In this document: in pieces, positions 1 to 13,735 of the stretch
Position numbering within the stretch: position 1 is the stretch's first letter
Layout of the letters: every line of letters starts with the position of its first letter
Origin: Eledone cirrhosa
Lineage: Eukaryota
Assembly (NCBI GenBank): GCA_964016885.1
Contig: CAXHJY010000904.1
Location: forward strand, 1 to 13,735
Direction: 5' to 3'
DNA length: 13,735 nucleotides
Program-made: the position numbers and the translations under genes
The notes under the pieces: model-generated
Database searches by the model: none
What the model was told of the DNA's origin: nothing
What the model saw: the letters and a program-made list of their open reading frames with translations, nothing else

Positions 1-345
1 GGCGAATAAAATTTCGTAGCTCTCTGAAATACAAAGGTCGCAGCCCTTGTGTCCTCCGTCGTAAGAGCGCGCTTTCTGGAGTATTTTCCAATTAAGCGTG
101 AAGGGGTGGAGTTCCTTTTGAGGTCCCAAACGTAGGAGGCGAGTGTTGTTTGGTTTGATTTATCCGGTCTTCTGAAGGAGTGGGTATGGCATACCAGCGG
201 GTCTTAAAGGTGTTGGAGGTCATGCCGATGTAAGATTTTTTGCAATCCTCGGTGCCCGAGATGACATCGCATTTGTATACGATGTCGTTTGTGAGGCATT
301 TGTTTTCTAGTGGGCATGTTTCCTTATTTAGGCAATTACATAGAG
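1..345 (-). mobile_element. Penelope-like retroelement fragment: Cys-rich linker plus GIY-YIG endonuclease domain, 5'-truncated at the microsatellite, two -1 frameshifts, runs off the left edge
   Basis: Manual minus-strand translation from 343: [51 protein letters not shown] / (1-nt loss ~189-190) HTHSFRRPDKSNQTTLASYVWDLKRNST / (1-nt loss in G-run 103-106) FTLNWKILQKARSYDGGHKGCDLCISESYEILFA. Shows CxCx5Cx5C, IVY (275-283)...YIG (224-232), the conserved R..H helix and CxLC-x2-E. This matches the C-terminal endonuclease of invertebrate PLEs and, from recall, the Naiad-type clade. Confidence 0.88.
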
Positions 346-384
<39 letters not shown>

Positions 385-823
385 ATATATATATTTATAT
401 ATATATATATGTATGTATATATATATATATTTATATATATATATATATGTATGTATATATATATATATTTATATATATATATATATATGTATGTATATAT
501 ATATATATTTATATATATATATATATATATGTATGTATATATATATATATTTATATATATATATATATATGTATGTATATATATATATATTTATATATAT
601 ATATATATATATGTATGTATATATATATATATTTATATATATATATATATATGTATGTATATATATATATATTTATATATATATATGTATGTATATATAT
701 ATATATTTATATATATATATGTATGTATATATATATATATTTATATATATATATGTATGTATATATATATATATTTATATATATATATGTATGTATATAT
801 ATATATATTTATATATATATATG

Positions 824-864
<41 letters not shown>

Positions 865-1065
865 ATATATATATATTTATATATATATATGTATGTATAT
901 ATATATATATTTATATATATATATGTATGTATATATATATATATTTATATATATATATATATATGTATGTATATATATATATATTTATATATATATATGT
1001 ATGTATATATATATATATATGTATGTATATATATATATATTTATATATATATATATATATGTATG

Positions 1066-1130
<65 letters not shown>

Positions 1131-1143
1131 ATATATAATATAT
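346..1143. repeat. Compound (AT)n micro/minisatellite with higher-order unit GTATG(TA)~7TTT(AT)n, about 30-42 bp
   Basis: Read directly: alternating GTATG and TTT interruptions of an (AT)n tract. The GTATG-to-TTT spacer is mostly (TA)7 and the TTT-to-GTATG spacer varies. Confidence 0.97.
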
Positions 1144-4100
1144 ATAAACGGAAAAAATGAAACGATATTTCATTTCCCACTCTTAGTACGGCTGTTACTT
1201 AAATATAAGTATGTACACGTACATACATATATGTATACCGACGTACAGTAGTATGTATATATATATATACATACATGCACACATATATATATGCACGTAT
1301 GGATTCACCGAACATTTATTATAATGCTCGGTGTGTTTGTAAACAAACATCCCGTATTAAGCCGTAGTGTCTAGCAACCACCGTTGCTCGTTTGTTCAAC
1401 ACTGACAAAGGAACGCTGTACTAGTTTCAAGCTTGTTAGCTATCGTCAGCAACGTATACCTTCCTGCCAGATTGTTGAACGTATATACTTACCTTATGCA
1501 TATTAACGGCTGAGTAGCCCAATATGCATATCGAGTGGGTTAATCGGCCGGGTGCACCGAAAACGATAAACGGAAAAAATGAAACGATATTTCATTTCCC
1601 ACTCTTAGTACGGCTGTTACTTAAATATAAGTATGTACACGTACATACATATATGTATACCGACGTACAGTAGTATGTATATATATATATACATACATGC
1701 ACACATATATATATGCACGTATGGATTCACCGAACATTTATTATAATGCTCGGTGTGTTTGTAAACAAACATCCCGTATTAAGCCGTAGTGTCTAGCAAC
1801 CACCGTTGCTCGTTTGTTCAACACTGACAAAGGAACGCTGTACTAGTTTCAAGCTTGTTAGCTATCGTCAGCAACGTATACCTTCCTGCCAGATTGTTGA
1901 ACGTATATACTTACCTTATGCATATTAACGGCTGAGTAGCCCAATATGCATATCGAGTGGGTTAATCGGCCGGGTGCACCGAAAACGATAAACGGAAAAA
2001 ATGAAACGATATTTCATTTCCCACTCTTAGTACGGCTGTTACTTAAATATAAGTATGTACACGTACATACATATATGTATACCGACGTACAGTAGTATGT
2101 ATATATATATATACATACATGCACACATATATATATGCACGTATGGATTCACCGAACATTTATTATAATGCTCGGTGTGTTTGTAAACAAACATCCCGTA
2201 TTAAGCCGTAGTGTCTAGCAACCACCGTTGCTCGTTTGTTCAACACTGACAAAGGAACGCTGTACTAGTTTCAAGCTTGTTAGCTATCGTCAGCAACGTA
2301 TACCTTCCTGCCAGATTGTTGAACGTATATACTTACCTTATGCATATTAACGGCTGAGTAGCCCAATATGCATATCGAGTGGGTTAATCGGCCGGGTGCA
2401 CCGAAAACGATAAACGGAAAAAATGAAACGATATTTCATTTCCCACTCTTAGTACGGCTGTTACTTAAATATAAGTATGTACACGTACATACATATATGT
2501 ATACCGACGTACAGTAGTATGTATATATATATATACATACATGCACACATATATATATGCACGTATGGATTCACCGAACATTTATTATAATGCTCGGTGT
2601 GTTTGTAAACAAACATCCCGTATTAAGCCGTAGTGTCTAGCAACCACCGTTGCTCGTTTGTTCAACACTGACAAAGGAACGCTGTACTAGTTTCAAGCTT
2701 GTTAGCTATCGTCAGCAACGTATACCTTCCTGCCAGATTGTTGAACGTATATACTTACCTTATGCATATTAACGGCTGAGTAGCCCAATATGCATATCGA
2801 GTGGGTTAATCGGCCGGGTGCACCGAAAACGATAAACGGAAAAAATGAAACGATATTTCATTTCCCACTCTTAGTACGGCTGTTACTTAAATATAAGTAT
2901 GTACACGTACATACATATATGTATACCGACGTACAGTAGTATGTATATATATATATACATACATGCACACATATATATATGCACGTATGGATTCACCGAA
3001 CATTTATTATAATGCTCGGTGTGTTTGTAAACAAACATCCCGTATTAAGCCGTAGTGTCTAGCAACCACCGTTGCTCGTTTGTTCAACACTGACAAAGGA
3101 ACGCTGTACTAGTTTCAAGCTTGTTAGCTATCGTCAGCAACGTATACCTTCCTGCCAGATTGTTGAACGTATATACTTACCTTATGCATATTAACGGCTG
3201 AGTAGCCCAATATGCATATCGAGTGGGTTAATCGGCCGGGTGCACCGAAAACGATAAACGGAAAAAATGAAACGATATTTCATTTCCCACTCTTAGTACG
3301 GCTGTTACTTAAATATAAGTATGTACACGTACATACATATATGTATACCGACGTACAGTAGTATGTATATATATATATACATACATGCACACATATATAT
3401 ATGCACGTATGGATTCACCGAACATTTATTATAATGCTCGGTGTGTTTGTAAACAAACATCCCGTATTAAGCCGTAGTGTCTAGCAACCACCGTTGCTCG
3501 TTTGTTCAACACTGACAAAGGAACGCTGTACTAGTTTCAAGCTTGTTAGCTATCGTCAGCAACGTATACCTTCCTGCCAGATTGTTGAACGTATATACTT
3601 ACCTTATGCATATTAACGGCTGAGTAGCCCAATATGCATATCGAGTGGGTTAATCGGCCGGGTGCACCGAAAACGATAAACGGAAAAAATGAAACGATAT
3701 TTCATTTCCCACTCTTAGTACGGCTGTTACTTAAATATAAGTATGTACACGTACATACATATATGTATACCGACGTACAGTAGTATGTATATATATATAT
3801 ACATACATGCACACATATATATATGCACGTATGGATTCACCGAACATTTATTATAATGCTCGGTGTGTTTGTAAACAAACATCCCGTATTAAGCCGTAGT
3901 GTCTAGCAACCACCGTTGCTCGTTTGTTCAACACTGACAAAGGAACGCTGTACTAGTTTCAAGCTTGTTAGCTATCGTCAGCAACGTATACCTTCCTGCC
4001 AGATTGTTGAACGTATATACTTACCTTATGCATATTAACGGCTGAGTAGCCCAATATGCATATCGAGTGGGTTAATCGGCCGGGTGCACCGAAAACGATA

Positions 4101-6967
4101 AACGGAAAAAATGAAACGATATTTCATTTCCCACTCTTAGTACGGCTGTTACTTAAATATAAGTATGTACACGTACATACATATATGTATACCGACGTAC
4201 AGTAGTATGTATATATATATATACATACATGCACACATATATATATGCACGTATGGATTCACCGAACATTTATTATAATGCTCGGTGTGTTTGTAAACAA
4301 ACATCCCGTATTAAGCCGTAGTGTCTAGCAACCACCGTTGCTCGTTTGTTCAACACTGACAAAGGAACGCTGTACTAGTTTCAAGCTTGTTAGCTATCGT
4401 CAGCAACGTATACCTTCCTGCCAGATTGTTGAACGTATATACTTACCTTATGCATATTAACGGCTGAGTAGCCCAATATGCATATCGAGTGGGTTAATCG
4501 GCCGGGTGCACCGAAAACGATAAACGGAAAAAATGAAACGATATTTCATTTCCCACTCTTAGTACGGCTGTTACTTAAATATAAGTATGTACACGTACAT
4601 ACATATATGTATACCGACGTACAGTAGTATGTATATATATATATACATACATGCACACATATATATATGCACGTATGGATTCACCGAACATTTATTATAA
4701 TGCTCGGTGTGTTTGTAAACAAACATCCCGTATTAAGCCGTAGTGTCTAGCAACCACCGTTGCTCGTTTGTTCAACACTGACAAAGGAACGCTGTACTAG
4801 TTTCAAGCTTGTTAGCTATCGTCAGCAACGTATACCTTCCTGCCAGATTGTTGAACGTATATACTTACCTTATGCATATTAACGGCTGAGTAGCCCAATA
4901 TGCATATCGAGTGGGTTAATCGGCCGGGTGCACCGAAAACGATAAACGGAAAAAATGAAACGATATTTCATTTCCCACTCTTAGTACGGCTGTTACTTAA
5001 ATATAAGTATGTACACGTACATACATATATGTATACCGACGTACAGTAGTATGTATATATATATATACATACATGCACACATATATATATGCACGTATGG
5101 ATTCACCGAACATTTATTATAATGCTCGGTGTGTTTGTAAACAAACATCCCGTATTAAGCCGTAGTGTCTAGCAACCACCGTTGCTCGTTTGTTCAACAC
5201 TGACAAAGGAACGCTGTACTAGTTTCAAGCTTGTTAGCTATCGTCAGCAACGTATACCTTCCTGCCAGATTGTTGAACGTATATACTTACCTTATGCATA
5301 TTAACGGCTGAGTAGCCCAATATGCATATCGAGTGGGTTAATCGGCCGGGTGCACCGAAAACGATAAACGGAAAAAATGAAACGATATTTCATTTCCCAC
5401 TCTTAGTACGGCTGTTACTTAAATATAAGTATGTACACGTACATACATATATGTATACCGACGTACAGTAGTATGTATATATATATATACATACATGCAC
5501 ACATATATATATGCACGTATGGATTCACCGAACATTTATTATAATGCTCGGTGTGTTTGTAAACAAACATCCCGTATTAAGCCGTAGTGTCTAGCAACCA
5601 CCGTTGCTCGTTTGTTCAACACTGACAAAGGAACGCTGTACTAGTTTCAAGCTTGTTAGCTATCGTCAGCAACGTATACCTTCCTGCCAGATTGTTGAAC
5701 GTATATACTTACCTTATGCATATTAACGGCTGAGTAGCCCAATATGCATATCGAGTGGGTTAATCGGCCGGGTGCACCGAAAACGATAAACGGAAAAAAT
5801 GAAACGATATTTCATTTCCCACTCTTAGTACGGCTGTTACTTAAATATAAGTATGTACACGTACATACATATATGTATACCGACGTACAGTAGTATGTAT
5901 ATATATATATATACATACATGCACACATATATATATGCACGTATGGATTCACCGAACATTTATTATAATGCTCGGTGTGTTTGTAAACAAACATCCCGTA
6001 TTAAGCCGTAGTGTCTAGCAACCACCGTTGCTCGTTTGTTCAACACTGACAAAGGAACGCTGTACTAGTTTCAAGCTTGTTAGCTATCGTCAGCAACGTA
6101 TACCTTCCTGCCAGATTGTTGAACGTATATACTTACCTTATGCATATTAACGGCTGAGTAGCCCAATATGCATATCGAGTGGGTTAATCGGCCGGGTGCA
6201 CCGAAAACGATAAACGGAAAAAATGAAACGATATTTCATTTCCCACTCTTAGTACGGCTGTTACTTAAATATAAGTATGTACACGTACATACATATATGT
6301 ATACCGACGTACAGTAGTATGTATATATATATATACATACATGCACACATATATATATGCACGTATGGATTCACCGAACATTTATTATAATGCTCGGTGT
6401 GTTTGTAAACAAACATCCCGTATTAAGCCGTAGTGTCTAGCAACCACCGTTGCTCGTTTGTTCAACACTGACAAAGGAACGCTGTACTAGTTTCAAGCTT
6501 GTTAGCTATCGTCAGCAACGTATACCTTCCTGCCAGATTGTTGAACGTATATACTTACCTTATGCATATTAACGGCTGAGTAGCCCAATATGCATATCGA
6601 GTGGGTTAATCGGCCGGGTGCACCGAAAACGATAAACGGAAAAAATGAAACGATATTTCATTTCCCACTCTTAGTACGGCTGTTACTTAAATATAAGTAT
6701 GTACACGTACATACATATATGTATACCGACGTACAGTAGTATGTATATATATATATACATACATGCACACATATATATATGCACGTATGGATTCACCGAA
6801 CATTTATTATAATGCTCGGTGTGTTTGTAAACAAACATCCCGTATTAAGCCGTAGTGTCTAGCAACCACCGTTGCTCGTTTGTTCAACACTGACAAAGGA
6901 ACGCTGTACTAGTTTCAAGCTTGTTAGCTATCGTCAGCAACGTATACCTTCCTGCCAGATTGTTGAA
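1144..6967 (-). repeat. Tandem array A of a 422-bp hammerhead-containing unit (13 full copies + 336-bp partial); retrozyme-like element, ribozyme sense on the minus strand
   Basis: Unit starts (ATAAACGGAAAAAATG) at 1144, 1566, 1988, 2410, 2832, 3254, 3676, 4098, 4520, 4942, 5364, 5786, 6210, 6632. Period is 422, except copy 12 (424 bp, one extra TA near 5898-5913). No substitutions seen by eye. Confidence 0.97.
1394..1480 (-). ncRNA. Type I hammerhead ribozyme motif (first of 14 minus-strand copies; others start at 1816, 2238, 2660, 3082, 3504, 3926, 4348, 4770, 5192, 5614, 6038, 6460, 6882)
   Basis: Reverse complement reads ACGUUG-CUGACGA-U-AGCU-AACA-AGCU-U-GAAAC-UA-GUA^CAGCGU. Helix I is ACGUUG/CAGCGU and the predicted cleavage falls between 1419 and 1418. 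Confidence 0.85.
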
Positions 6968-9609
6968 TCCATACGTGCATATATATATGTGTGCATATAT
7001 ATATGTGTGCATGTATGTATATATATATATACATACTACTGTACGTCGGTATACATATATGTATGTACGTGTACATACTTATATTTAAGTAACAGCCGTA
7101 CTAAGAGTGGGAAATGAAATATCGTTTCATTTTTTCCGTTTATCGTTTTCGGTGCACCCGGCCGATTAACCCACTCGATATGCATATTGGGCTACTCAGC
7201 CGTTAATATGCATAAGGTAAGTATATACGTTCAACAATCTGGCAGGAAGGTATACGTTGCTGACGATAGCTAACAAGCTTGAAACTAGTACAGCGTTCCT
7301 TTGTCAGTGTTGAACAAACGAGCAACGGTGGTTGCTAGACACTACGGCTTAATACGGGATGTTTGTTTACAAACACACCGAGCATTATAATAAATGTTCG
7401 GTGAATCCATACGTGCATATATATATGTGTGCATGTATGTATATATATATATACATACTACTGTACGTCGGTATACATATATGTATGTACGTGTACATAC
7501 TTATATTTAAGTAACAGCCGTACTAAGAGTGGGAAATGAAATATCGTTTCATTTTTTCCGTTTATCGTTTTCGGTGCACCCGGCCGATTAACCCACTCGA
7601 TATGCATATTGGGCTACTCAGCCGTTAATATGCATAAGGTAAGTATATACGTTCAACAATCTGGCAGGAAGGTATACGTTGCTGACGATAGCTAACAAGC
7701 TTGAAACTAGTACAGCGTTCCTTTGTCAGTGTTGAACAAACGAGCAACGGTGGTTGCTAGACACTACGGCTTAATACGGGATGTTTGTTTACAAACACAC
7801 CGAGCATTATAATAAATGTTCGGTGAATCCATACGTGCATATATATATGTGTGCATGTATGTATATATATATATACATACTACTGTACGTCGGTATACAT
7901 ATATGTATGTACGTGTACATACTTATATTTAAGTAACAGCCGTACTAAGAGTGGGAAATGAAATATCGTTTCATTTTTTCCGTTTATCGTTTTCGGTGCA
8001 CCCGGCCGATTAACCCACTCGATATGCATATTGGGCTACTCAGCCGTTAATATGCATAAGGTAAGTATATACGTTCAACAATCTGGCAGGAAGGTATACG
8101 TTGCTGACGATAGCTAACAAGCTTGAAACTAGTACAGCGTTCCTTTGTCAGTGTTGAACAAACGAGCAACGGTGGTTGCTAGACACTACGGCTTAATACG
8201 GGATGTTTGTTTACAAACACACCGAGCATTATAATAAATGTTCGGTGAATCCATACGTGCATATATATATGTGTGCATGTATGTATATATATATATACAT
8301 ACTACTGTACGTCGGTATACATATATGTATGTACGTGTACATACTTATATTTAAGTAACAGCCGTACTAAGAGTGGGAAATGAAATATCGTTTCATTTTT
8401 TCCGTTTATCGTTTTCGGTGCACCCGGCCGATTAACCCACTCGATATGCATATTGGGCTACTCAGCCGTTAATATGCATAAGGTAAGTATATACGTTCAA
8501 CAATCTGGCAGGAAGGTATACGTTGCTGACGATAGCTAACAAGCTTGAAACTAGTACAGCGTTCCTTTGTCAGTGTTGAACAAACGAGCAACGGTGGTTG
8601 CTAGACACTACGGCTTAATACGGGATGTTTGTTTACAAACACACCGAGCATTATAATAAATGTTCGGTGAATCCATACGTGCATATATATATGTGTGCAT
8701 GTATGTATATATATATATACATACTACTGTACGTCGGTATACATATATGTATGTACGTGTACATACTTATATTTAAGTAACAGCCGTACTAAGAGTGGGA
8801 AATGAAATATCGTTTCATTTTTTCCGTTTATCGTTTTCGGTGCACCCGGCCGATTAACCCACTCGATATGCATATTGGGCTACTCAGCCGTTAATATGCA
8901 TAAGGTAAGTATATACGTTCAACAATCTGGCAGGAAGGTATACGTTGCTGACGATAGCTAACAAGCTTGAAACTAGTACAGCGTTCCTTTGTCAGTGTTG
9001 AACAAACGAGCAACGGTGGTTGCTAGACACTACGGCTTAATACGGGATGTTTGTTTACAAACACACCGAGCATTATAATAAATGTTCGGTGAATCCATAC
9101 GTGCATATATATATGTGTGCATGTATGTATATATATATATACATACTACTGTACGTCGGTATACATATATGTATGTACGTGTACATACTTATATTTAAGT
9201 AACAGCCGTACTAAGAGTGGGAAATGAAATATCGTTTCATTTTTTCCGTTTATCGTTTTCGGTGCACCCGGCCGATTAACCCACTCGATATGCATATTGG
9301 GCTACTCAGCCGTTAATATGCATAAGGTAAGTATATACGTTCAACAATCTGGCAGGAAGGTATACGTTGCTGACGATAGCTAACAAGCTTGAAACTAGTA
9401 CAGCGTTCCTTTGTCAGTGTTGAACAAACGAGCAACGGTGGTTGCTAGACACTACGGCTTAATACGGGATGTTTGTTTACAAACACACCGAGCATTATAA
9501 TAAATGTTCGGTGAATCCATACGTGCATATATATATGTGTGCATGTATGTATATATATATATACATACTACTGTACGTCGGTATACATATATGTATGTAC
9601 GTGTACATA

Positions 9610-9616
<7 letters not shown>
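6964..9616 (+). repeat. Tandem array B: reverse complement of the same 422-bp unit (6 full copies + 105-bp partial); ribozyme sense on the plus strand
   Basis: Marker TGAATCC at 6964, 7402, 7824, 8246, 8668, 9090, 9512. Period is 422; the first interval is 438 because of a 16-bp duplication at 6975-7006. The array ends at ...GTACATACTTATAT (9616). Confidence 0.97.
7229..7315 (+). ncRNA. Type I hammerhead ribozyme motif (first of 6 plus-strand copies; others start at 7651, 8073, 8495, 8917, 9339)
   Basis: Helix I 5' ACGTTG 7254-7259; core CTGACGA 7260-7266; helix II T-AGCT-AACA-AGCT-T 7267-7280; GAAAC 7281-7285; TA; cleavage triplet GTA 7288-7290; helix I 3' CAGCGT 7291-7296. Helix I extends through AAGG/CCTT, CTGGCA/TGTCAG and GTTCAACA/TGTTGAAC. 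Confidence 0.85.
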
Positions 9617-9692
<76 letters not shown>

Positions 9693-9771
9693 ATACATAT
9701 ATATTTATATATATATATATATATGTATGTATATATATATATATATTGATATATATATATATATATGTATG

Positions 9772-9822
<51 letters not shown>

Positions 9823-9897
9823 ATATATATGTATGTATATATATATATATTTATATATATATATATATATGTATGTATATATATTTATATAAATATA
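9617..9897. repeat. Compound (AT)n block, near-copy of the block starting at 10039
   Basis: Shares rare interruptions with the downstream block: TATACATA (C9696 vs C10124) and TATTGATA (G9748 vs G10176). Confidence 0.9.
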
Positions 9898-10038
9898 TTT
9901 ACAAACACACCGAGCATTATAATAAATGTTCGGTGAATCCATACGTGCATATATATATGTGTGCATGTATGTATATATATATATACATACTACTGTACGT
10001 CGGTATACATATATGTATGTACGTGTACATACTTATAT
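9898..10038 (+). repeat. Isolated 141-bp partial copy of the 422-bp unit, without the ribozyme
   Basis: TTTACAAACACACCGAG...GTACATACTTATAT matches 9476-9616. TGAATCC at 9934 is exactly 422 bp after 9512. Confidence 0.95.
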
Positions 10039-13394
<3,356 letters not shown>

Positions 13395-13735
13395 AAATAA
13401 AGTTAAATAAAAGTCAAATGATTAAAATTTAGCTTCGTTTATTACTGCTATATATATTTCAGTGACAGCCATCTCTGGCTGTGACCTCTTCAGGCAGTTT
13501 GAATTAGTATGGTATAGACAAGTACATATGTTGTTTAGGTGTATGATATTGTCAATACTCTGATATGCCCAGTTCCTTGTTGGGTTGTTAATTCACTGGG
13601 GAACTGGAGTCATATGAATTCAAACAAACGAATTTTAGTGTCACAGGTCCCCTTCTCCTCTCATTGGTCAGTTATTAGTGTTGTCATTGTTGGAGTTAGC
13701 TTAAAAATTGATAAAATGGTAGAAGGGACAAGGTG
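13395..13735. other. Unique non-repetitive flank, unassigned (intronic/intergenic-like)
   Basis: AT-rich, with no ORF in the supplied track and no recognisable motif. Confidence 0.5.

What the first reader, a model, noticed from the sequence alone, without database searches (positions are those of the whole stretch)
1144..9616. The 422-bp satellite-like unit is a hammerhead-ribozyme element (candidate non-LTR retrozyme family producing a 422-nt circRNA)
Seen: each unit holds one complete type I hammerhead motif with both core boxes (CUGACGA; GAAA), a GUA cleavage triplet and complementary helix I arms, giving 20 copies in total, and the unit has no coding capacity. Established: short non-coding tandem repeats with one type I hammerhead per unit (newt satellite 2, Schistosoma SM-alpha, Dolichopoda pDo500, metazoan non-LTR retrozymes) are transcribed as multimers and self-cleave to monomers, which in retrozymes circularise; they are thought to be mobilised by PLE reverse transcriptases. 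Inference: this is such an element, on the large side, and possibly an unannotated family. A multimeric transcript would release 422-nt monomers starting CAGCGUUCC and ending ...GAAACUAGUA.
Basis: partly seen in the sequence, partly recalled or inferred. Interest (0 to 1): 0.92.

Follow-up and report, generated by a model that had tools for sequence, protein, structure and literature searches.

The report
Ribozyme repeat carrying Penelope insertion footprint
This is a short self-cutting RNA repeat of a known animal type, and its scattered copies bear the insertion footprint of Penelope-like transposons, which points to the enzyme that spreads it and suggests it is copied round and round from an uncut or circular RNA.

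Summary
Confirmed: 20 type I hammerhead cores lie in a 422-bp non-coding repeat, and helices covary across sister families. It is an animal non-LTR retrozyme; cleavage and circular RNA are untested. The array is two head-to-head arms inside (TA)n whose outer ends sit at two fixed unit positions, 275 and 216. Genome-wide, 420 and 218 exact junctions join these positions to (TA)n, against 0 at the cleavage site and 0 at a control position. Of 18 two-armed loci, 16 pair one end of each kind. This is the Penelope-like element (PLE) footprint: an inverted 5'-truncated copy with a tail on one end. Hydra-clade PLEs in the same genome show it too. Arms read through the cleavage site without scars, and private variants often fill both arms. 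Best reading: a PLE reverse transcriptase primes at two internal sites and copies an uncut template, most likely a circle. The helper PLE is unidentified. I found no such footprint reported for retrozymes.

The parts
1144..6967 (-). Arm A: 13.8 tandem units. Outer 3' end at 1144 = unit position 275 (numbered from the cleavage site), running into (TA)n. Inner 5'-truncated end at unit position 362.
6964..9616 (+). Arm B: 6.2 tandem units, inverted relative to arm A. Starts at unit position 112 with a 16-nt stutter (6975-7020). Outer 3' end at 9616 = unit position 216, running into (TA)n.
6964..6967 (.). Head-to-head inversion junction with 4-nt microhomology
7229..7315 (+). Type I hammerhead ribozyme motif (one of 20 copies); predicted cleavage after 7290
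7291..7712 (+). One 422-nt monomer, cleavage site to cleavage site (predicted linear or circular RNA)
7498..7513 (+). 6-bp hairpin (unit 208-223) whose loop holds the short fixed end (unit 216); inferred reverse-transcription start site 1
7507..7565 (+). 59-nt 'tail' (unit 217-275), present at one insertion end only. It includes a hairpin (unit 234-274) whose 3' foot is the long fixed end; inferred start site 2.
346..1143 (.). (TA)n-type microsatellite, left flank (target)
9617..13394 (.). (TA)n-type microsatellite, right flank; same polarity as the left flank up to about 11,600, then inverted
9898..10038 (+). Partial unit (76-216) again ending at the short fixed end
1..345 (-). 5'-truncated, twice-frameshifted endonuclease region of a young Hydra-clade PLE family (neighbour, not part of the retrozyme)
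13396..13735 (-). 3' terminal repeat of a second Hydra-clade PLE family, with its own type I hammerhead (core begins at 13493), ending in the same microsatellite

Best explanation
The unit is a young subfamily of an animal non-LTR retrozyme, and the window holds one insertion of it. Step 1 (inferred, as in characterised retrozymes): arrays are transcribed, the hammerheads cut, probably as dimers, and monomers are ligated into circles. Step 2 (footprint shown, enzyme inferred): a Hydra-clade PLE protein nicks both strands of a (TA)n microsatellite and starts reverse transcription at two fixed internal RNA sites, unit 216 and unit 275. Step 3 (read-through shown, template form inferred): each cDNA runs backwards through the ribozyme junction for 0.1 to 16 units, so the template was uncut, most likely a circle copied by rolling. 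Step 4 (shown as structure): the two cDNAs join at variable points, leaving head-to-head arms with the 59-nt tail on one end only. Odds: functional retrozyme about 0.9; PLE-driven about 0.85; circle rather than uncut linear multimer about 0.6.
For: Fixed ends: 420 and 218 exact (TA)n junctions, against 0 at the cleavage site and 0 at unit 356. Among 21 loci chosen by an internal match, 18 have two arms and 16 of these pair a 275 end with a 216 end. Among 62 ends taken in chromosome order, 32 were called automatically with a 216-type inverted partner. Four sister families, down to 61% identity, end at the homologous hairpins. An autonomous PLE of the same genome shows one short and one tailed end in 5 of 6 inverted pairs. 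Its proteins carry the Hydra motifs and the (TA)n preference given in PMC8557442. PMC11167929 shows that the PLE tail lies between two internal start sites and that both strands are cut and extended. Of 123 arms, 88 cross the cleavage site; 275 of 275 junction contexts have unchanged length; 2 of 123 inner ends lie within 5 nt of the site, 2.9 expected. Within-locus pairs share the TA-run class in 738 of 831 cases, shuffled mean 0.43; private substitutions fill both arms in L034 (6 of 6) and L136 (4 of 4). Contigs of other runs show the 275-to-TA end.
Against: Cleavage, expression and circles were not observed. In Li et al. 2026, 8 of 9 predicted retrozymes did not cleave in vitro. No helper PLE with sequence similarity to the unit was found among the four families compared. 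Of 62 ends, 24 have a single arm. Some variants fill only part of one arm (L041: 7 of 14 units; L155: 5 of 7), and the two arms of L041 differ; one template circle does not explain this. The Anolis PLE uses uncut linear RNA in vitro and starts at sites not homologous to the target, whereas both ends here end in TAT, homologous to the target. Published tails are 30-40 bp; this one is 59. The covariation count rests on a few related families, and the core was fixed by the search pattern.
Confidence: 0.75

Rival explanations
1. Same PLE footprint, but the template is an uncut linear multimeric transcript of an existing array; circles, if made, are by-products.
For: Ribozyme mutants do not affect PLE insertion in vitro and unprocessed RNA is the main substrate (PMC11167929). 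Block-wise variants in L041 and L155 fit copying of a mosaic parent array. Weak helices II and III could leave transcripts uncut.
Against: Copying can only shorten a linear template, yet arms reach 16 units. Whole arrays uniform for a private substitution on both arms (L034, L136) need a source array that was already uniform. Helices are kept by compensatory change.
Confidence: 0.3
2. Arrays grow locally by unequal crossover or slippage from a short PLE-derived insertion, as proposed in the discussion of Li et al. 2026.
For: Arm-restricted blocks of variants (L041, L155). Many insertions are shorter than two units. The window holds a partial duplicate at 9898-10038.
Against: Both inverted arms are multimeric and share private variants. 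Hundreds of dispersed, near-identical insertions keep the two fixed ends. No similarity to the PLE terminal repeats compared. It may add to array length but cannot explain the origin of the arrays.
Confidence: 0.1
3. The hammerhead is a relic or inactive, and the unit is simply a non-autonomous PLE passenger or satellite.
For: U-U at the base of helix II and a 2-bp helix III; no Rfam match; 8 of 9 tested frog elements were inactive.
Against: 8 of 15 pairs show changes on both sides, against at most 3 in slid controls. Axolotl HHR_Amex2 has the same U-U and cleaves, better as a dimer (PMC7229834). The motif is kept in families only 61% identical.
Confidence: 0.08
4. A LINE-type enzyme mobilises the RNA, and the inversion is L1-style twin priming.
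For: LINE-like ORFs occur in nearby loci. Twin priming also gives head-to-head arms (recalled, not read).
Against: LINE priming starts at the RNA 3' end and the second primer lands at variable places (recalled). Here there are 0 junctions at the monomer 3' end, and both starts are fixed and internal.
Confidence: 0.04
5. The inverted array is an assembly or read-chimera artefact of a small unplaced contig.
For: The window is a whole 13.7-kb contig, and its units are nearly all identical.
Against: The same structure, with different junctions, occurs at dozens of chromosomal loci. Short-read contigs of other runs hold the 275-to-TA end and opposite-strand joints. The copy number in this one contig remains unverified.
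Confidence: 0.02

Closest known systems
Metazoan non-LTR retrozymes (coral, mussel, axolotl; Cervera and de la Pena 2020, PMC7229834; read: parts 2-3 of 6, Discussion, passages)
   Same: Tandem non-coding repeats under 50% GC with one canonical type I hammerhead each; short palindromic helix III; U-U at the base of helix II as in HHR_Amex2; self-paired circular fold; PLEs in the same genome.
   Different: No head-to-head arms, fixed ends or tail in the text I read ('inverted' occurs 0 times). The 2020 review says the repeats show no conserved motif pointing to their helper (PMC7761336, passages). Expression is shown there and not here.
Vertebrate retrozymes related to PLE terminal repeats (Li, Clavereau and Pollet 2026, bioRxiv 10.64898/2026.07.22.740005; read: parts 1-3 of 5 and passages; supplements not seen)
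   Same: PLE connection, size range, dispersed monomers and multimers.
   Different: Their evidence is co-occurrence and sequence similarity, and they suggest local amplification. They do not analyse insertion ends ('tail', 'orientation' and 'junction' occur 0 times). Here the footprint is present but similarity to a PLE was not found.
Penelope-like elements, Hydra clade (Craig et al. 2021, PMC8557442; passages) and Anolis Poseidon (Frangieh et al. 2024, PMC11167929; parts 1-2 of 4)
   Same: Inverted 5'-truncated copy, tail on one end only, two internal start sites in stem-loops, (TA)n target, type I hammerhead.
   Different: No ORF; both arms are multimers of a 422-nt unit; the tail is 59 nt and lies 216-275 nt from the cleavage site; both ends have TAT homology to the target.
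Non-autonomous Chlamys elements such as MRC1 (PMC8557442, passage)
   Same: Non-autonomous PLE passengers forming multicopy head-to-tail insertions.
   Different: They resemble their helper at the 3' end, and most Chlamys lack a canonical hammerhead.
Newt satellite 2, Schistosoma SM-alpha, Dolichopoda pDo500 (recalled; only a search listing seen for the newt paper)
   Same: Hammerhead-bearing tandem repeats.
   Different: The snRNA-type internal promoter that I recall for newt satellite 2 was not supported here.

Membership tests
Type I hammerhead ribozyme | Core CUGANGA, GAAA and UH with three helices, helix I open | tested here: met
   (0 of 20,000 shuffles)
Type I hammerhead ribozyme | Helices kept by compensatory change | tested here: met
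   8 of 15 pairs in 22 sequences, slid controls at most 3; sequences come from a few related families
Type I hammerhead ribozyme | Match to an Rfam hammerhead model | tested here: not met
   a library limit rather than a defining feature of the fold
Type I hammerhead ribozyme | Site-specific self-cleavage | not testable with these tools
   needs in vitro transcription
Non-LTR retrozyme | Tandem units with one type I hammerhead each | tested here: met
Non-LTR retrozyme | Non-coding, GC under 50%, unit of a few hundred bp | tested here: met
   longest ATG ORF 51 aa, GC 38%
Non-LTR retrozyme | Dispersed multicopy family | tested here: met
Non-LTR retrozyme | Monomer folds as a highly self-paired circle | tested here: met
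   z -8.0 on 30 shuffles, 71% paired; partly driven by the TA-rich hairpin
Non-LTR retrozyme | Expressed as linear and circular monomer RNA | not testable with these tools
   needs stranded RNA reads or a northern blot
Non-LTR retrozyme | No LTR, PBS or PPT; target-site duplication when visible | tested here: inconclusive
   no LTR-like flanks seen; PBS and PPT not searched; duplications cannot be read in (TA)n
PLE-type insertion | Inverted 5'-truncated copy next to the first arm | tested here: met
   18 of 21 loci; 38 of 62 ends after review by eye
PLE-type insertion | Tail between two fixed internal starts, on one end only | tested here: met
   59 nt against the published 30-40
PLE-type insertion | (TA)n target as in the Hydra clade | tested here: met
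Autonomous PLE | ORF with reverse transcriptase and GIY-YIG endonuclease | tested here: not met
   the unit has no ORF
Derivative of a PLE terminal repeat | Sequence similarity to the terminal repeat of a resident PLE | tested here: inconclusive
   none with four families beyond TA-rich tracts; the genome holds more families

The most novel reading that the evidence does not exclude
Animal retrozyme circles are direct substrates of PLE reverse transcriptase. One enzyme complex primes a single circular RNA at two conserved hairpins and rolls round it from both target nicks, writing two inverted concatemers in one step. The hairpin pair would be a portable PLE-recruitment signal that needs no sequence similarity to the helper, and each array would be a clonal record of one RNA circle.
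Probability: 0.45. Interest if true: 0.8.

Novelty: new variant of a known kind. Interest (0 to 1): 0.62.

Why it matters
Which enzyme mobilises animal retrozymes, and whether their tandem arrays come from rolling-circle reverse transcription or from later local expansion, is stated as open in the papers read. This family supplies the missing genomic signature, two exact start sites, and candidate helpers with intact frames in the same genome. That allows a direct in vitro test with circular against linear RNA. It also bears on how PLEs make their inverted, one-tailed insertions, and on how ribozyme satellites arise. The retrozyme itself is ordinary for its class.

Tried and rejected
Rfam: only AT-rich microRNA-family noise and one snoRNA chance match.

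Expression: no RNA holder listed; the four runs laid were contigs of unknown kind and cannot show RNA ends.

snRNA-type internal promoter: older families carry ATGCAAAT and the youngest subfamily ATGCATAT, but three U2 upstream regions have no octamer and match the units no better than shuffles (24 comparisons, lowest p 0.15). U6 upstream regions were not examined.

Origin from the flanking PLEs: no similarity beyond TA-rich tracts.

Priming at the monomer 3' end: 0 junctions.

Pile-up of inner ends at the cleavage site: none. A cluster at unit 387-411 on the short-end arm (9 of 42) has p about 0.05 and is left as a lead. The cluster at 231-255 on the long-end arm reflects very short insertions.

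PLE proteins: Pfam and PDB sequence searches did not recognise them (one homologue hit RVT_1 at 9e-6), so the Hydra assignment rests on motifs compared by eye.

Two scripts for calling partner arms were faulty and were replaced.

Earlier-findings look-ups were empty. The paper on the newt satellite 2 promoter was not held.
Full report
Observation. The window is a whole 13.7-kb contig of a 3.0-Gb genome, taken to be an animal's from its element content. It holds two arrays of a 422-bp unit: 13.8 copies on the minus strand (1144-6967) and 6.2 on the plus strand (6991-9616), between TA-type microsatellites. There are 20 hammerhead cores; 17 of 18 complete monomers are identical and one has an extra TA. 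The motif is a type I hammerhead: helix I with a long extension, CUGACGA, a 4-bp helix II over a U-U mismatch, GAAA, a 2-bp helix III within the palindrome ACUAGU, and GUA ending at 7290. A descriptor I wrote hit 0 of 20,000 shuffles. Rfam did not recognise it. The longest ATG-started ORF is 51 aa. PMC4209133 (part 1 of 4 read) describes this short palindromic helix III as typical of animal hammerheads that work as dimers. PMC7229834 reports the same U-U in an axolotl ribozyme that cleaves weakly alone and better as a dimer.

Family. The genome has 1,621 exact copies of the 50-nt ribozyme and 38,363 matches to a looser motif, with a reversed control of 0. These fall into sister families with units of about 422-426, 430, 466 (two kinds) and 484-538 bp; the most distant is 61% identical to the window's unit. 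In 22 hammerhead sequences chosen from the variants, 8 of 15 pairs show changes on both sides and 91.5% of cells pair; slid controls give at most 3 pairs and 48%. The core is invariant by construction and the sequences are related, so this supports the fold without being a probability. All five units tested fold as circles at z -7.7 to -9.5 on 30 shuffles each, partly because of a TA-rich hairpin.

Architecture, not in the original finding. Positions are numbered from the cleavage site. The window's left arm ends at unit 275 and its right arm at unit 216, both pointing outwards into (TA)n. I fetched 20 loci found by an internal 331-nt match, a set biased to long arrays. With the window, 18 of 21 have two head-to-head arms, and 16 of the 18 pair a 275 end with a 216 end; one has 275/281 and one ran off the fetched stretch. 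The inner ends vary. Genome-wide there are 420 exact 275-to-TA and 218 exact 216-to-TA junctions. There are 0 at the cleavage site and 0 at unit 356, where the unit also ends in TA letters; only these two control positions were counted. I then took the 275 ends of contig C1 in order, the first 69 less 7 already held, giving 62 ends in 60 loci. The script called 26 with an inverted partner ending at 215-219, 6 with a tiny partner of the 216 type, 6 with other ends and 24 single. By eye, 3 of the 'other' calls are self-matches, 2 are stutters ending at 216, 1 ends near 275, and 3 'single' calls have a 216-type partner. That gives 38 of 62 inverted, 37 of them 216-type. The 216 end lies in the loop of a 6-bp hairpin and the 275 end at the foot of the next long hairpin. 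The four sister families end at the homologous places. Contigs from other sequencing runs show the TA loose end at 7565, which is unit 275 (21 contigs in X2, 2 in X5), and three opposite-strand joints, so the structure is not an assembly product.

What makes this footprint. PMC8557442 (passages) describes PLE insertions as having an inverted 5'-truncated copy and a 30-40-bp tail at one end only. It defines the Hydra clade by RWK, DKT, a CxCX5C linker, no CCHH, canonical hammerheads and (TA)n targets. PMC11167929 (parts 1-2 of 4) shows that a PLE protein cuts and extends both strands and starts at two internal RNA sites that delimit the tail. Both window flanks belong to such elements. Positions 1-345 are a broken piece of a family with 39,544 first-look candidates and intact 758-aa frames. 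Positions 13396-13735 are the end of a second family with an 894-aa frame. Both proteins show the Hydra motifs by eye (RWR or RWK, DKT, CxCX5C); profile libraries did not recognise them. The second family is an internal control: 5 of 6 inverted pairs have one short and one tailed end in (TA)n, and in the sixth the tailed arm runs on into the ORF. The unit has no similarity to the terminal regions of four PLE families beyond TA-rich tracts, and the genome holds more families, so the helper is not identified.

Template. Of 123 arms, 88 cross the cleavage site, about 250 crossings in all. All 275 junction contexts with intact flanks keep their length. Only 2 inner ends lie within 5 nt of the site, 2.9 expected (five doubtful partner calls, partners under 25 nt and one duplicate were dropped first). 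A cleaved linear monomer, or jumping between monomers, is therefore unlikely. Among 181 monomers at 40 loci, 738 of 831 within-locus pairs share the TA-run class, against a shuffled mean of 0.43 and maximum of 0.52. The dominant class is the same on both arms in 14 of 15 callable loci, and private substitutions fill every unit of both arms in L034 (6 of 6) and L136 (4 of 4). That fits one circle copied from both nicks, and also fits an uncut transcript of a uniform parent array. Against a single circle, L041 has different arms and a change in 7 of 14 units, and L155 has a change in 5 of 7 units on one arm. Template switching or later local growth must occur at least sometimes.

Mechanism. Shown: the ribozyme fold and its conservation, dispersal, the (TA)n target, two fixed ends, inverted arms and read-through of the cleavage site. 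Inferred: transcription, cleavage, circularisation, the PLE enzyme and rolling-circle copying. The promoter is unknown; the snRNA-type idea was not supported.

Comparison and novelty. The element works like, and on every testable feature belongs to, the animal non-LTR retrozymes; expression and cleavage remain untested. It is not an autonomous PLE. PLE mobilisation was proposed in PMC7229834 and supported by co-occurrence and homology in the 2026 preprint. The 2020 review states that these repeats show no motif pointing to their helper. Literature searches and term look-ups in the two main papers found no report of inverted arms, fixed ends or a tail in retrozymes. Subscription journals, Repbase and Dfam entries, and supplements were not seen, and the footprint may be common but undescribed.

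Verdict. The insertion footprint makes a stated open question directly testable. Interest 0.62; new variant of a known kind.

Noticed in passing
window 1-345 (-); L071 2944-5217 (-): Very abundant young Hydra-clade PLE family with intact 758-aa frames, its own type I hammerhead, a long TA-rich 3' region, and two fixed ends about 72 nt apart.
   Followed up: partly
window 13396-13735 (-); L176 2913-5594 (+): Second young Hydra-clade PLE family (894-aa frame, tail of about 100 nt) with a different hammerhead.
   Followed up: partly
L090 6200-7400 (-), L113, L192: A third PLE family, about 50% identical to the first, whose 3' region showed no hammerhead with my pattern and holds a diverged internal duplication.
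   Followed up: no
unit 387-411 (window 7677-7701): Inner ends of short-end arms cluster just past the cleavage site, over helix II and the core (9 of 42, p about 0.05); possibly a stall on the folded ribozyme.
   Followed up: partly
unit 311-318 (window 7601-7608): Octamer ATGCAAAT is kept in older families and changed to ATGCATAT in the youngest subfamily.
   Followed up: partly
L087, L096, L101, L109: Four independent loci hold the same minimal insertion: 30 nt of the long end joined through 3-nt microhomology to about 8 nt of the short end.
   Followed up: no
window about 11,600: The right microsatellite changes polarity here.
   Followed up: no
G000:C1:5738324-5752446 (L153, L154): A 466-bp sister-family insertion with about 31 units on one arm and under one unit on the other, with the homologous fixed ends.
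   Followed up: partly
L072 8757, L079 8198, L152, L158: Retrozyme and PLE ends are often nested in the same TA tract, as in the window.
   Followed up: no
G000:C3:307349256-307453739; G000:C19:31780605-31840331: Tandem arrays of U2 genes (2.2-kb period) and U6 genes (about 1.8-kb period).
   Followed up: no
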